The translations under genes were made by a program, and so were the position numbers. Below, piece by piece: positions 20,711-62,339 of a stretch of DNA of 64,000 nt; positions within the stretch are counted from its first letter, which is position 1, and the number at the start of each line of letters is the position of its first letter. Location: NCBI GenBank assembly GCA_964016885.1, contig OZ024740.1, forward strand, positions 412,982,001 to 413,046,000. Direction: 5' to 3'. The notes below the pieces were generated by a model. The model saw only the letters and a list, made by a program, of their open reading frames with translations. It was not told where the DNA came from and did no database searches. Source of the DNA: Eledone cirrhosa. Lineage: Eukaryota.

Positions 20711-20805
20711 TCATGCATTTTATAGATAATGATATATACATATATATATATGTAAAATAAACTAAAATAAATAAGTCAAATATTTAAAATTTGACTTCGT
20801 TTATT

Positions 20806-20860
20806 ACTGCTATATATATTTCGGTGACAGCCATCTTTGGCTGTGACCTCTTTAGGCAGT
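20806..20860 (-). ncRNA. Hammerhead ribozyme copy with mutated core (CTAAAGA)
   Basis: Reverse-complement partner of 22381-22435. Confidence 0.65.
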
Positions 20861-22380
20861 CCGAATTAGTGTGGTAGAGACGAGTACACATGTTGTTGAG
20901 GTGTTTCACTTTGTCAATACTCTGATATGCCCAGTTCCTGGTTGGGTTGTTATTTCACTGAGGAACTGGAATCATATGAATTTAAACAAACGAATTTCAG
21001 CATCAAAAGACATCTTCTCATCCCATTGGTCAGTTGTGAGAACATTCCTCAGTCAAAAGTCTATAGAAATTCGTTCGGAGGCGAGGCAATCTGTAGTGGT
21101 TGTTCCTGTTATTGTTAAGTACATCTGACCTCTACTCTTATGTTGGTAGTGGTGTTGGTGTTGTAGACAGCTCAAAAAAAGGATAAAGTGGTAGAAGGAA
21201 TAAGATGGTAAACGAATAAAATAAAATAACATAATCAAATAAAATTGTGCCATGCATAAGAAGAAATAGAAGGTAATAAAATGAAGAAAATAGAAAATAA
21301 ATGTAAAATAAAAATGAAGATTCAAATAAAATAAAATGTGTGTATGTTATAACCAATCTCAAAGTTAGAAAGATTTGTAAGGTCACTCCTCCCATTGGTC
21401 AGTTGTGAGAGCATTCCTCAGTTAAAAGTGTATAGAAATTCTTTCTGGGGTGAGGCTACCTGTAGTATTTGTTTTTGCTATTGTTAAGTACATCTGACCT
21501 CTACCCTTATTTTGGTAGTGGTGTTGGTGCTGCGGTCAGCCTATGTCTTGCTGCTGCTGACATTAAGAAGTATCTGTGTGTGTTTGTTATAACACACACA
21601 TTTTATTTTATTTGATACTTGATTTATATTTTTCATTTATTTTTTATTTTCTTCATTTTATTGCCTTCTATTTCTTTATATGCATGGCACAACCCCCACC
21701 CACTCCCACCACCACCACCACGAGAAATGGTGCCAGCTTAGATGAAAAAACACACACAGATACTTCTAAAAGTCAGCAGCAGCAAGACCTGGGCTGAACG
21801 CAGCACCAACACCACTACAAAAATAAGGATAGAGATCAGATGTACTTAACAATAGTAAAAACAAACACTACAGGAAGCCTCATCCCAGAAAGAATTTCTA
21901 TAGACTTTTGACTGAGGAATGCTCTCACAACTGACCAATGGGAGGAGTGACCTTACAAACCTTTCTAGCTTTGAGATTGGTTATAACACACACAAATTTT
22001 ATTTTATTATCTTATTTTATTTCATTCTTTTACCATCTTATTCCTTCTACCACCTTATCCTTTTTTTGAGCTGACTCCAACACCAACACCACTACCAGCA
22101 TAGGAGTAGATGTCAGATGTACTTAACAATAGCAAGAACAACCACTATAGATTGCCACGTCTCAGAACGAATTTCTATAGACTTTTGACTGAGGAATATT
22201 CTCACAACTGACCAATGGGATGAGAAGATGTCCTTTGACGCTGAAATTCGTTTGTTTAAATTCATATGATTCCAGTTCCTCCGTGAAATAACAACCCAAC
22301 CAGGAACTGGGCATATCAGAGTATTGACAAAGTGAAACACCTCAACAGCATGTCTACTCGTCTCTACCACAATAATTCGA

Positions 22381-22435
22381 ACTGCCTGAAGAGGTCACAT
22401 CCAAAGATGGTTGTCACCGAAATATATGTAGCAGT
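22381..22435 (+). ncRNA. Minimal type I hammerhead ribozyme
   Basis: actgc-CTGAAGA-ggtcaca..tgtcacc-GAAA-tatatgTA-gcagt: stem I actgc/gcagt, stem II, short near-palindromic stem III. Confidence 0.85.
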
Positions 22436-22849
22436 AATAAACGAAGCCAAATTTTAAATATTTGATTTATTAATTTTAGTTTATTTTACATTACTCCGGA
22501 GTAACCAAACCAACCTACGCACTTCATCGAGTGGTCCAATCTGCACACTGAAGTGTAGTATACAACCAACATAGTCTCAAAATATATATATATATGTATA
22601 TATATATATATATATATATATATATATATATTTATATACACTCATATATATATATGTATACACCCCCCCCACACACACACACTCACGTATGGGCCTCCCA
22701 ATTTTTTACATTATATACATGTCTGTGTATATTTTGATTATTTGAAAATTATTTTAAAGTGGACATGATTTACCAAAAATATCTTTAAGCGAACTTGACC
22801 CAACGTATCACGGATAGTCTAGTATAGATATCTATGTATATATATATAT

Positions 22850-22990
22850 ATAACGAAGGAGTTGTGGTAAGGAACCAGATGGACCATAACGCACCAAAGG
22901 ACTCAATACGTAGTGTAGCAGAGTGCGTGATAGGGAAAAGTATGACCCCGACGGCAGAACTCAAGCCGTTTCGACGGCTACTTCTGAAAT
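22850..22990 (-). mobile_element. 3' end (tail + half hammerhead) of a Penelope-like family also found at 40433-40629
   Basis: Homologous to 40433-40570; on -: GAAAcggc-loop-gccGTC; begins at (TA)n. Confidence 0.65.
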
Positions 22991-23248
22991 ATGTGCATGT
23001 ATGTATATATATATATACATACTACTGTCCGTCTGTATACATATATGCATGTACGTATACATACTTATGTTTAAGTAACAGCCGTACTAAGAGTGAGAAA
23101 TGAAATTTCGTTTCATTTTTTCCGTTTATCGTTTTCGGTATGCCCGGCCGATTAACTCACTCGATATGCAAATTAGGCTGCTCAGCCGTTAATATGCATA
23201 AGGAAAGTATATACTTTCAGACTTTCAATCATCTGGCAGGAAGGTATA

Positions 23249-58949: not shown

Positions 58950-58996
58950 TGCTCCGATGAATCCAAACGACAGTTTGGAAGAAACGATTGTCAGCA
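58950..58996 (+). ncRNA. Hammerhead-like ribozyme, CCGATGA core variant (mirror copy ~54673-54719 on -)
   Basis: tgct-CCGATGA-a tccaaac gaca gtttgga a-GAAA-cgattGTC-agca. Confidence 0.7.
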
Positions 58997-60012
58997 TTAA
59001 AATGTTTTGAACATAGCTTTGATTATTCTGTAATTTATATTCCTGCTCTGTAAAACATCTGATGTATTTACATTGAGCTATTTTTCTTACTGGTAATAAG
59101 GTAGTAATGAATTACTGACCTTTCCTGTTTATAATTATATATAGTGTATATATACGTATAAATAATATTATTATTATTATATATATATATATATATATAT
59201 ATATATATATATATATATATATATACATACATATACATTATATGTGAGTATGTATAGAGTGAGAGAGAGAGAAGGAAAGTCACATACGTGCTGCAGTTTC
59301 TTTAGTATTTCTTGTTATATTAAGAAAATGCAGTTTGTATCGATAGGATATGATTGTGAATCACCATGAATCATTTCCAATTTAACATTCTAGTTGATAT
59401 CACCTTTAAATGTAGGTCGACGTAATTACAGTTTTCATTCTCAACAGTCAATAATAAACAGTTTTCTCATTATTACACATGATGAACAAACATATTATAA
59501 CGGTTGCTTATTTCCCGGCAACCATTCCGGTTCCTCATCGCTTCTCGTTTTCGAAAGCAAATGCAAGTGCTGCATGACATCCTGATTTAACAGTGGCTCA
59601 ATTAAAACGAATCATTTATTTGAGATGGCGTGTCTGCCGACAGCTATTGTGTATGTAGATCAATTTATATTTCTATACTTAATGAATGTGTATAGATTAT
59701 GTAATATTTGTCTATTGGAGAAATACTTATAGCAGAATCATACTAATTCAAATTGGCTGCACATAACCCATATTTCCAACACTTTTCATTAATTTCGCTC
59801 TCTCTCCCTTTCATTCTTTTTCTATATGTGTGTCTGTCTGCTCATCTGTACCTGTATATCTCATTTTGGATTTTGTAAGAATATAAGTGTATATATATAT
59901 ATATATATATATATATATATATATATATATATATATATATAAGTGTGTGTGTGTATATATATATATATATATATAATATAAGATCAAAAGATGGTTAAAG
60001 GAGTTCAATATA

Positions 60013-60079
60013 TTTTATTATGCGCATTTCAAAAACAAACATCATCAAACAATAATATTTGTGTTTTCATCAGATAAAA
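60013..60079 (-). ncRNA. Type I hammerhead ribozyme (mirror copy)
   Basis: Reverse complement of 60203-60269. Confidence 0.85.
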
Positions 60080-60202
60080 CAGGAGAACATGATATGAAGG
60101 CTAAAAAAACACTTGTTGATAGTGCAGTTTTAAATCAACATATCAACATATCAACTGCACTATCAACAAGTGTTTTTTTAGCCTTCATATCATGTTCTCC
60201 TG

Positions 60203-60269
60203 TTTTATCTGATGAAAACACAAATATTATTGTTTGATGATGTTTGTTTTTGAAATGCGCATAATAAAA
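60203..60269 (+). ncRNA. Type I hammerhead ribozyme, canonical core
   Basis: ttttat-CTGATGA-long stem II-GAAA-tgcgcaTA-ataaaa; palindromic ATGCGCAT stem III. Confidence 0.88.
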
Positions 60270-62339
60270 TATATTGAACTCCTTTAACCATCTTTTGATC
60301 TTATATTATGCATACTCCAGTCCCATAAACTGTAGAGTGCTTCTTATCCGATATCTGCATTGCTTTATTGTACTACAATAAAACTCACCTCCTACATATA
60401 TATATATATATATATATATATATATATATATATATATATATATACAGATAGATAGATAGATATAAGTGTGTGTGTGTATATATATATATATATATATATA
60501 TATGTGTGTGTGTGTGTGTGTGTGTGTGTGTGTGTGTGTGTGTGTGTGTGTGTGTATATAGGTATAAAGATAGTGCTCAAGCGCAAGAATAGAAGATATG
60601 GGGTTTCAATTCCTCTCAGCAGTTATTAGAGAAAACGAATCTCCAATCGCTGTACAATAGAATGGTAGCATTCGGCTCCAGTCTCCAAGTCCGAGAAATA
60701 GTGCGACAGTAACAATGGTAGTGCCTAAAGTCTTTCCGGACATTAAATACCAACAGGCGATTAGGCAGCAATATAGAATTAGCACGGTGGTTAGAATTAG
60801 AATTCAAGATGTTTGGTCCAACCACGAGCGTAAACCGAACCGGTCAATTTCACAACTTGCACGATCCATATACATATGTGTGCGTGTGGGTGTTTTGTGT
60901 GTGCGGGGGGGGGGGGGGGGGTATATGTATTTGTACATGTTTGTGTATACATTCATGCATACAAAACTTTAGTTACTCATGTAACCATCATTTTACGACG
61001 TTATACCTACTACTACGAGGCTAAGGTTTCGAATTTACTAAGCGGGAATGTAATTTACGTTTTCGATAAAATTTGACGAAATAACTACTGGATTCGTGTG
61101 ATTGACAAAGAAAAAGAAAATAGTGGAGCATTAGGATGGAGCTGAAATCAATAAAAATTAACGTAAAGAAAGACAGTTATTGTGATCCTATAATTGTTTC
61201 TATCTTCAAGACAACATCCAGTGATTTCTATACTTGCTCTGATAGGTTAATATCTAAAACAGAAATGAATAATGCAACTGTCAAAACCAGTAAACCTAGC
61301 ATAATTGAATCGTCCCTGCTAAGAGATATCTGAAGAAATGAAGATATTTAGTTCAACACCTTCGTGGGAGAAGAGTAATCGCAGAGAAGATATTTGTACA
61401 GACTTGCAATCAGAAGAGAACGAAATAACGTTTATGTAAGCTTGACATTTGAACTTGATAAGTTTAATACGATTGAAATGTTTCATTTCGTCTCTAAACA
61501 TTCAATATATACGAACGCATTTTTTTTTTAAATCGCAATTCTTATCAACGAATGTTAACCATAATATACTTTACTTACAAGGTGTTTCCAAATATACTTG
61601 AATTATAAGATTTTGTATTTCAGGAAAAAGCTTAGGGCTAAACGTTGGGCTATTTTGATGTAACAGTCATATATATTTATAGTAGCATTGACATGCAAAA
61701 GAATCACAATATCAAATATGTTGGTCAGGCAATCATATATTTATTTACTTCTACTCGATACAATCAGAAATATACCAACAAATCTGTATTCAGAACAAAC
61801 GACTATAACATGGAATGGGTCTGGAGAAGAGGAGTGAATTAAAAAGCACGTCACTTCATATATATTTGAAATGCTTACCTTCCTTCCTCACGCACACTAC
61901 TTCCTTTACTTTCTGTGATACACGTGATGAGTTTTAATACATTTCAACCGTAATAGTCGTTTGAGTTTGATCTTCTGTCAGTATTCTCGATTTAGAATGT
62001 TAAATGTAAAGCTCTTTCTGGCATATCAAATCCTTCTTGGATGTCAAAAGTAGTTAGCAAATGCCGGCTGTCAACATAGACATATCAACTCTTGTTGTAA
62101 TTCAATGATATTTATAAAGAAAGAGCAATGTTCTGAAAGATTGGTCACTAAGAATAGAACTAAACGGGAAACTTCGTGGTAATTAATTCAAGCCTAAAAT
62201 ATTAGGTAATCCAGAGAAGGTCTTGGGATATAAATGGTGAAATATTTATCATATAAATAAAAAGTGTATGTTCATACGTGTAAACAAATACTTATAAAAT
62301 TGCATACTTATATGTCTATGTATGCATATGTATATCAAT

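What the first reader, a model, noticed from the sequence alone, without database searches (positions are those of the whole stretch)
20751..60396. Recurrent asymmetric ribozyme hairpins: at least six Penelope-like families share one insertion architecture in (TA)n
Seen: eight insertions of 0.2-4.5 kb (20751-22581, 26492-27002, 39560-39972, 40038-40361, 40433-40629, 45962-49195, 54629-59180, 59973-60396) each consist of two inverted arms with 3' ends facing outward. Hammerhead motifs sit in or between the arms, a 55-140 nt tail is on exactly one arm, and TA-rich sequence or (TA)n lies on the flanks. Known: PLEs carry hammerheads, inverted 5'-truncated pLTRs and 3' tails, and Hydra-type PLEs prefer (TA)n. 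Inference: here the hairpin is the standard product, with each target strand primed at a different fixed position of the RNA (tail end vs internal end) or resolved by fold-back. The short versions may form a class of non-autonomous, MITE-looking ribozyme retroelements that would produce dsRNA if transcribed.
Basis: partly seen in the sequence, partly recalled or inferred. Interest (0 to 1): 0.85.

Follow-up and report, generated by a model that had tools for sequence, protein, structure and literature searches.

The report
Penelope retroelement one-tailed hairpin insertions
These hairpin-shaped repeats are the insertion products of a known class of jumping genes (Penelope-like retroelements), and across the genome a two-armed insertion almost always carries the extra "tail" on exactly one arm, which likely means the element starts copying its RNA from two fixed sites, one on each cut DNA strand.

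Summary
The eight insertions are real and belong to seven Penelope-like element (PLE) families: five Hydra-type, two Neptune-type by motif. Inverted arms, a one-sided tail, hammerheads and (TA)n targeting are all published PLE features, and the scan noted similar hairpins in other genomes.

What is measured here is the strictness. Of 215 unique head-to-head pairs from sampled genomic loci, 212 join one tailed and one untailed end (about 109 same-class pairs expected if independent); facing ends of separate insertions show no such rule (36 of 85 mixed). In 21 of the 212 the tailed arm is tail only, which a single fold-back cannot make. Best reading: twin priming at two fixed internal RNA sites, one per target strand, extending a published in vitro result.

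Corrections: only about 4 in 10 sampled insertions are visibly two-armed; centres mostly vary and arms co-vary within a copy, so hairpins form at insertion rather than spreading as MITE-like units (one young subfamily is a possible exception); the short family-E copy lacks a complete hammerhead. No RNA evidence was available.

The parts
20750..21588 (-). Family A (Hydra-type) untailed arm; 3' end at 20750 in TA-rich flank; decayed hammerhead at 20811-20855
21745..22491 (+). Family A tailed arm (pLTR) with type I hammerhead motif, core at 22386, predicted cut after 22430
22492..22581 (+). Family A tail, 90 nt, followed by (TA)n
26493..26738 (-). Family B (Neptune-type) tailed arm; tail 26493-26550 (58 nt)
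26739..27002 (+). Family B untailed arm; hammerhead motif (core at 26811) lies in the part with no inverted partner
39560..39631 (-). Family C (Neptune-type) short untailed arm, abutting a family-D fragment (39522-39560)
39640..39972 (+). Family C tailed arm; hammerhead core 39707-39741 with imperfect helix I; short tail about 39933-39972
   Evidence: (below score cut)
40040..40361 (.). Family D short hairpin: tail 40040-40131 (-), arms 40132-40240 and 40243-40361, variant hammerhead (CAGAAGA core) in both arms
40435..40630 (.). Family E short hairpin: tail 40435-40513 (-), arms 40514-40572 and 40573-40630; only the 3' half of the parent's hammerhead-like fold
45963..49195 (.). Family D long hairpin: tail 45963-46054 (-), outer arms to 47050 and from 48198, inner palindrome 47074-48110
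47608..48204 (+). C-terminal ORF remnant of family D with CxCX5C linker and GIY-YIG-type endonuclease region (inverted copy 46959-47635 on -)
54629..55305 (-). Family F (Hydra-type) untailed inverted pLTR
55306..58307 (+). Family F body: broken RT-EN ORF (about 55418-57860) with RWR, DKT, CxCX5C, CxxC and CxH motifs and an Asn-rich insert
58308..59180 (+). Family F 3' pLTR with hammerhead (CCGATGA core at 58954) and 140-nt tail 59041-59180
59973..60396 (.). Family G short hairpin: arms 59973-60129 (-) and 60153-60309 (+), intact hammerhead motif in both arms (60073-, 60209+), tail 60310-60396

Best explanation
These are insertion products of endonuclease-bearing Penelope-like retroelements in (TA)n, and the one-tail rule is likely produced by programmed twin priming: the element protein would nick both strands of the target and start one cDNA at the downstream RNA site (tail end, T) and the other at the upstream site (U) of the same RNA. 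Shown here: two fixed ends per family, near-strict T+U pairing, tail-only arms, arms sharing variants within a copy, variable centres, and the tail continuing into the ORF. Published for a lizard PLE in vitro: both strands cut and extended, two internal start sites bounding the tail, predicted dimer. Inferred: one site per strand on one RNA; the trailing T-primed cDNA either stops at or displaces the U-primed one; the two cDNAs are joined by microhomology or by one snapping back on itself and annealing to the other; failure of one arm leaves a single-armed copy. Also inferred: the abundant 0.2-0.4 kb hairpins (E, G) are copies that ran to a fixed RNA 5' end, probably the start of a pLTR-initiated transcript.
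For: 212 of 215 unique divergent pairs are T+U; 60 of 61 among pairs found only as bystanders in loci fetched for another family; 131 of 133 after dropping tail-anchored query sets; 108.7 same-class pairs expected under independence, p about 1e-60. Control with the same classifier: ends of separate insertions facing each other across a TA tract are 36 mixed, 49 same-class of 85. Micro-arms of 12-59 nt: 10 opposite class, 1 same. In 21 of 212 pairs the T arm starts within 12 nt of U or inside the tail, several at U itself, the geometry of twin priming on one RNA (L1 model, PMC2837659 passages). Variants shared by both arms exceed the between-insertion expectation in 6 of 6 families tested, e.g. 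C 11 vs 1.0, D 10 vs 2.0, G 160 vs 42.2. In E the same 4-nt-loop junction occurs in both orientations relative to the tail (30 of 30 loci in each of two searches), so either cDNA can be the one that folds back. E arm 5' ends: 134 of 208 within 9 nt (42 of 85 bystanders), peak on the +1 A of the only YYANWYY match within 130 nt of U. Frangieh 2024 (PMC11167929, main text parts 1-2).
Against: Frangieh 2024 saw no difference in start site between top and bottom strands and did not test linkage within one target. Three exceptions (2 U+U in B, 1 T+T in E) and one same-class micro-arm. 80 of 199 bystander ends have no visible partner, so two-arm priming is not obligatory or is often lost. Shared arm variants could come from later gene conversion between arms. 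Sequence cannot separate one RNA from two RNAs held asymmetrically. The initiator match is post hoc, the G hotspot matches 6 of 7 positions only, the A hotspot is largely an ascertainment effect (1 of 9 bystanders), and no RNA data were available. The sample is the top-ranked 30 hits per query plus bystanders, not a census.
Confidence: 0.65

Rival explanations
1. Single priming plus fold-back: one cDNA starts at the tail end, snaps back on itself (or self-primes on an antisense template), and the second arm is trimmed at the U site by the endonuclease when the intermediate is resolved.
For: Gives T+U automatically and identical arms at birth. Many centres look like snap-backs with short loops (E, G). 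Craig 2021 ascribes the tail to EN-mediated resolution (PMC8557442 passages); Arkhipova 2013 proposes self-priming for palindromic junctions (PMC3846280 passages).
Against: Cannot make the 21 of 212 pairs in which the T arm is tail only and the U arm carries upstream sequence absent from it, nor the mirror E junction in which the U arm is the longer one (30 of 30 loci); single-armed U copies are as common as T copies among bystanders (46 vs 34); U is a direct RT start site in vitro.
Confidence: 0.2
2. The short hairpins are non-autonomous, MITE-like ribozyme retroelements copied as whole units from hairpin masters.
For: A young G subfamily: 28 of 30 loci are 98-100% identical hairpins with the centre at the same place and in the same orientation to the tail (27 of 27 parsed). 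At least 30 E copies share one junction. A hairpin master could regenerate itself under twin priming, because a T-primed cDNA crossing the centre is complementary to the U-primed one. I put this at about 0.35 for that G subfamily alone.
Against: Even the young G set has 7 junction strings in 27 copies while arms barely differ; tail-anchored samples show 20 different centres in 20 E hairpins and many centres in 22 G hairpins; apart from the junction base in E, no one-arm variant recurs in more than 2 copies; the shared E junction exists in both orientations; E and G have long relatives linked to Hydra-type ORFs; A, B, C, D, F centres vary.
Confidence: 0.12
3. The palindromes are assembly artefacts (read fold-over).
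For: Palindromes next to (TA)n are hard to assemble; no long read or contig spanning a whole window element was seen.
Against: Arms differ by 3-15%, one arm has a family-specific tail ending at the same base in dispersed copies, and contigs of three public runs (one sample) and raw reads of another study show tail-to-inverted-arm joints such as 40516>40574, 40200>40294 and 40491>40574 (these come from other copies of the families).
Confidence: 0.02

Closest known systems
Insertion unit of EN+ Penelope-like elements (Craig, Yushenova, Rodriguez, Arkhipova 2021, PMC8557442; Arkhipova et al. 2013, PMC3846280)
   Same: 5'-truncated copies, partial tandems, inverted 5'-truncated pLTR head to head, tail often at one end only, hammerhead in the pLTR, palindromic junctions, Asn-rich ORF insert.
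   Different: Tails here are 58-140 nt against the published 30-40; the papers call the tail optional and give no pair counts in the passages I read, whereas here T+U is 212 of 215; very short two-armed copies are abundant.
Hydra clade PLEs (Craig 2021, section 11 read whole)
   Same: C-terminal EN, RWK-like, DKT, CxCX5C, CxxC and CxH motifs, divergent RT, (TA)n target, hammerheads: families A, D, F, and by ORF fragments E and G.
   Different: RWR instead of RWK in D and F; variant hammerhead cores in D (CAGAAGA) and E parent (CTGAGAA); not placed in a tree with the published proteins.
PAc (Poseidon of Anolis) internal initiation (Frangieh et al. 2024, PMC11167929)
   Same: Two internal RT start sites bounding the tail, both strands cut and extended, AT-rich targets, tail downstream of the hammerhead and running into the ORF.
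   Different: That paper reports no strand difference and does not link the two sites to inverted pairs in the text I read; the genomic data here show the two ends are coupled within an insertion.
L1 twin priming and dual priming (Meyer et al. 2010, PMC2837659, passages)
   Same: Second target strand primes internally, giving an inverted upstream segment joined head to head.
   Different: In L1 the second site is chance microhomology and segments do not overlap; here it is one fixed site and the arms usually overlap into a hairpin.
Metazoan non-LTR retrozymes (Cervera and de la Pena 2020, PMC7229834, passages)
   Same: Short, non-coding, dispersed, type I hammerhead.
   Different: Retrozymes are head-to-tail tandems giving circular RNA; these are head-to-head pairs or single arms derived from PLE pLTRs.

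Membership tests
EN+ Penelope-like elements | RT with C-terminal GIY-YIG endonuclease in one ORF | tested here: met
   645-aa family-D ORF (L267) and broken F ORF align end to end; Atlas neighbours at 0.95-0.96 include clusters with RVT_1 (77-79% of members) and GIY-YIG (26-31%); 912 homologues of about 700 aa, unnamed; family B ORF hits RVT_1 at E 3e-4, below the curated cut-off. Pfam gave 0 hits for 4 of 5 ORFs.
EN+ Penelope-like elements | pLTR from partial tandems, direct or inverted, with a tail that continues into the ORF | tested here: met
   Internal pLTRs with read-through in A (L246), B (L255), D (L267); inverted pLTRs in all seven families.
EN+ Penelope-like elements | Minimal type I hammerhead motif in the pLTR | tested here: met
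   A, B, F, G in the window; D and E parent with variant cores; C imperfect. Self-cleavage itself not tested.
EN+ Penelope-like elements | RT phylogeny groups with PLEs and telomerases | not tested
Hydra clade | RWK, DKT, CxCX5C linker, CxxC and CxH motifs; no CCHH | tested here: met
   A: RWK, DKT, CxCX5C, CxH, CxxC broken by a stop; D and F: RWR, DKT, CxCX5C, CxxC, CxH. E and G by ORF fragments 45-74% identical to D.
Hydra clade | Insertion into (TA)n | tested here: met
   806 of 877 T or U ends (before removing duplicates, all seven families) are followed by (TA)3 or more.
Neptune/Nematis-type PLEs (families B, C) | CX2-5CxxC linker before GIY-YIG and CCHH motif | tested here: inconclusive
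   CX4CxxC in C (L258), degenerate in B (L254); Cys and His residues inside the EN region read by eye; Neptune versus Nematis not separated.
MITE (non-autonomous DNA transposon) | Terminal inverted repeats at both extremities and a fixed internal sequence | tested here: not met
   The tail lies outside one arm; centres and arm lengths vary; single-armed copies are common.
Non-LTR retrozymes | Head-to-tail tandem monomers with one canonical hammerhead each | tested here: not met
   Copies are head-to-head pairs or single arms.
Non-LTR retrozymes | Abundant circular RNA | not testable with these tools
   No RNA run of this organism was offered.

The most novel reading that the evidence does not exclude
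PLE integration is an intrinsically asymmetric two-site reaction: one enzyme dimer on one RNA primes one target strand at the tail end and the other at the upstream site, so a two-armed insertion carries exactly one tail; the thousands of 0.2-0.4 kb hairpins are strong-stop-like copies of the 5' end of pLTR-initiated transcripts, and some hairpins (young family G) regenerate themselves as masters because the two cDNAs are complementary once one crosses the centre.
Probability: 0.4. Interest if true: 0.65.

Novelty: new member of a known kind. Interest (0 to 1): 0.42.

Why it matters
How PLEs form their tandem and inverted structures is named as open in Craig 2021. A 212-of-215 pairing rule across seven families of two clades turns the loosely described optional tail into a constraint that the existing in vitro system can test directly. 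It also warns annotators that these short hairpins are not MITEs or microRNA precursors, and that pipelines will mislabel them. The elements and the architecture themselves are known kinds.

Tried and rejected
Rfam scan: 87 matches at E<=1, none at a gathering score, all microRNA-like or chance, no hammerhead; rejected as hairpin and TA-repeat noise. Pfam on four window ORF pieces: nothing meaningful; solved structures: 0 hits. Idea that G hairpins are all copied as units was weakened by the tail-anchored sample. Idea that E arms start at a hammerhead cut site was dropped: the predicted cut lies downstream and the hotspot is inside helix II. L086 upstream sequence, first taken for the G parent, is another hairpin family. 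The A 5' hotspot (22 of 71) is mostly set by the query start (1 of 9 bystanders). The first pair count (220 of 223) was not de-duplicated and is replaced. Automatic partner chaining mis-extended a few loci (L114, L127, L219) and was not used for the headline count. Three T+T-looking cases (L046, L102, L131) have one arm reading through into the next unit and are not insertion ends. Read depths were not used as copy numbers. [quoted passage not shown]
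Full report
Setting. The window lies in a 3.0-Gb animal assembly of 1796 contigs; a cephalopod is my guess from recall and was not tested. About 3% of the window is (TA)n. 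I labelled the families A (20750-22581), B (26493-27002), C (39560-39972), D (40040-40361 and 45963-49195), E (40435-40630), F (54629-59180) and G (59973-60396).

Observation. Self-comparison confirms all eight inverted structures, with arms 85-97% alike. Against natural family end references each has one end at a fixed untailed position (U) and the other extended by a tail to a second fixed position (T), 3' ends outward. Tails are 58-140 nt, but about 40-45 nt in the C copy. A strict type I hammerhead scan gives 4 motifs against 0 in 30 shuffles. A relaxed scan gives A, B, F, G and a variant core in D, none in C or the short E copy, with a background of at most 0.0125 per kb. The left end of C abuts a D fragment, not (TA)n.

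Identity. Long copies fetched from the genome (stretches) carry ORFs. A, D and F have the motifs given for the Hydra clade in Craig 2021 section 11: RWK or RWR, DKT, CxCX5C, CxxC, CxH. E and G copies adjoin ORF fragments 45-74% identical to the D protein. B and C have a Neptune/Nematis-type linker and a weak RVT_1 hit. The D protein has no Pfam or PDB hit, but its Atlas neighbours include RVT_1 and GIY-YIG clusters and it has 912 unnamed homologues. In internal pLTRs of A, B and D the tail runs on towards the ORF, so T, like U, is an internal RNA position.

Genome-wide pairing. I ran one or two DNA searches per family and took the 30 best loci of each (168-2533 first-look candidates per query, 40 scored). 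All family ends in the 347 loci then held were classed and de-duplicated. Of 215 divergent nearest pairs with both ends on (TA)n, 212 are T+U, 2 U+U and 1 T+T: A 12/12, B 16/18, C 7/7, D 29/29, E 83/84, F 7/7, G 58/58. Bystander pairs, which no query selected (a few are the window's own elements), give 60 of 61. Without the tail-anchored sets it is 131 of 133; independence predicts 108.7 same-class pairs. Ends of separate insertions that face each other are 36 mixed and 49 same-class, so the classifier does not force the result. Short micro-arms add 10 opposite against 1 same.

How common. Among 199 bystander ends with 600 nt or more of upstream room, 102 are in T-U pairs, 80 have no partner and 17 are other cases: roughly 35-40% of insertions are visibly two-armed. 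Of the 80, 20 join (TA)n directly at the 5' side, 53 join other sequence and may hide partners. The hairpin is a major product, not shown to be the standard one.

Made at insertion or copied as units. Centres vary in A, B, C, D and F. In tail-anchored samples, 20 E hairpins have 20 different centres, and 22 G hairpins share 71 variants on both arms against 39 on one arm. Both-arm variants exceed the between-insertion expectation in all six families tested; later conversion between arms is an alternative cause. One E junction with a 4-nt loop is common, but in both orientations to the tail (30 of 30 and 30 of 30). The young G subfamily is the open case: 28 of 30 loci are near-identical hairpins with the centre in one orientation, yet with 7 junction strings in 27 copies. 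Arm 5' ends cluster strongly in E (134 of 208; 42 of 85 bystanders, on a YYANWYY match) and G (58 of 139; 8 of 23), weakly elsewhere. A pLTR-internal promoter is known for Drosophila Penelope (PMC2377424 passages), so a fixed transcript start is a reasonable but untested cause.

Mechanism. Frangieh 2024 (main text parts 1-2 of 4) showed a PLE protein cutting and extending both strands and starting at two internal sites that bound the tail, with no strand difference. The data here add that the two ends are coupled within an insertion. In 21 of 212 pairs the T arm is the tail alone, which needs two separately primed cDNAs and fits both on one RNA. I therefore favour programmed twin priming with joining by microhomology or snap-back (0.65) over single priming with fold-back and resolution (0.2), unit copying (0.12) and artefact (0.02). 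Against artefact, public short-read data show tail-to-inverted-arm joints from other copies; no read spans a whole window element. No RNA run of the organism was offered, so dsRNA, editing and ribozyme activity are untested.

What is known. Craig 2021 (passages, section 11, supplement rows) and Arkhipova 2013 (passages) describe inverted 5'-truncated pLTRs with a tail often or optionally at one end. Cervera 2014 (abstract and results) reports minimal hammerheads in pLTRs, including pairs 100-700 bp apart on opposite strands. Retrozymes (passages) differ. Goubert 2022 (passages) lists the same features for curators. Seven searches found no pair counts or twin-priming model for PLEs, within a library lacking most subscription papers. 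Earlier scan notes on other genomes reached a similar known-kind verdict (seen after my reading was formed); none exist for this genome.

Verdict. Real features, new members of known PLE clades, known architecture. The value lies in the strict pairing rule and the tail-only arms, which make a stated open question testable. Interest 0.42.

Noticed in passing
window 40647-41226: A ninth hairpin (arms 216 nt, 95% alike, 148-nt spacer) starting in (TA)n. Only its own two arms match in the genome, no hammerhead, covered at single-copy depth in public contigs. Origin unexplained.
   Followed up: partly
   Followed up: partly
window 22852-22988, 34849-34878, 39522-39560, 45257-45351, 54518-54622, 16760-16814: Single-armed or fragmentary copies of families E, D and F inside the same window, so not every insertion here is a hairpin.
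   Followed up: yes
window 63238-63444 (+): Further Hydra-type endonuclease fragment, 51% identical to the family-D ORF.
   Followed up: no
L077 and other family-G loci: Centres carry tandem re-copies of 8- or 14-nt units, as if the RT realigned repeatedly at a template boundary, reminiscent of telomerase-like repeat addition (inference).
   Followed up: partly
L337 (family E parent): Hammerhead-like fold with a 5-bp helix I, long helix II loop, stable helix III and variant core CTGAGAA; a 7-nt direct repeat allows an alternative hairpin over the GAAA, possibly a switch.
   Followed up: partly
window 56900-57450: Asn-rich insert in the family-F ORF between RT and EN, like those reported for rotifer Penelope ORFs (PMC3846280 passages).
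   Followed up: no
window 7792-11217 (+): Unbroken 1141-aa ORF with RT and a C-terminal restriction-like endonuclease motif, ending in (AAT)n; R4/Dong-like by recall, not searched.
   Followed up: no
window 11600-14582 (-): Broken APE-RT non-LTR element; L1/Tx1-like by recall.
   Followed up: no
window 5092-5219, 20592-20710, 27885-28043, 42086-42583, 44778-44973, 45378-45585, 53822-54012: Dispersed 120-200 nt SINE-like repeat, one copy itself a small palindrome at 27918-28043.
   Followed up: no
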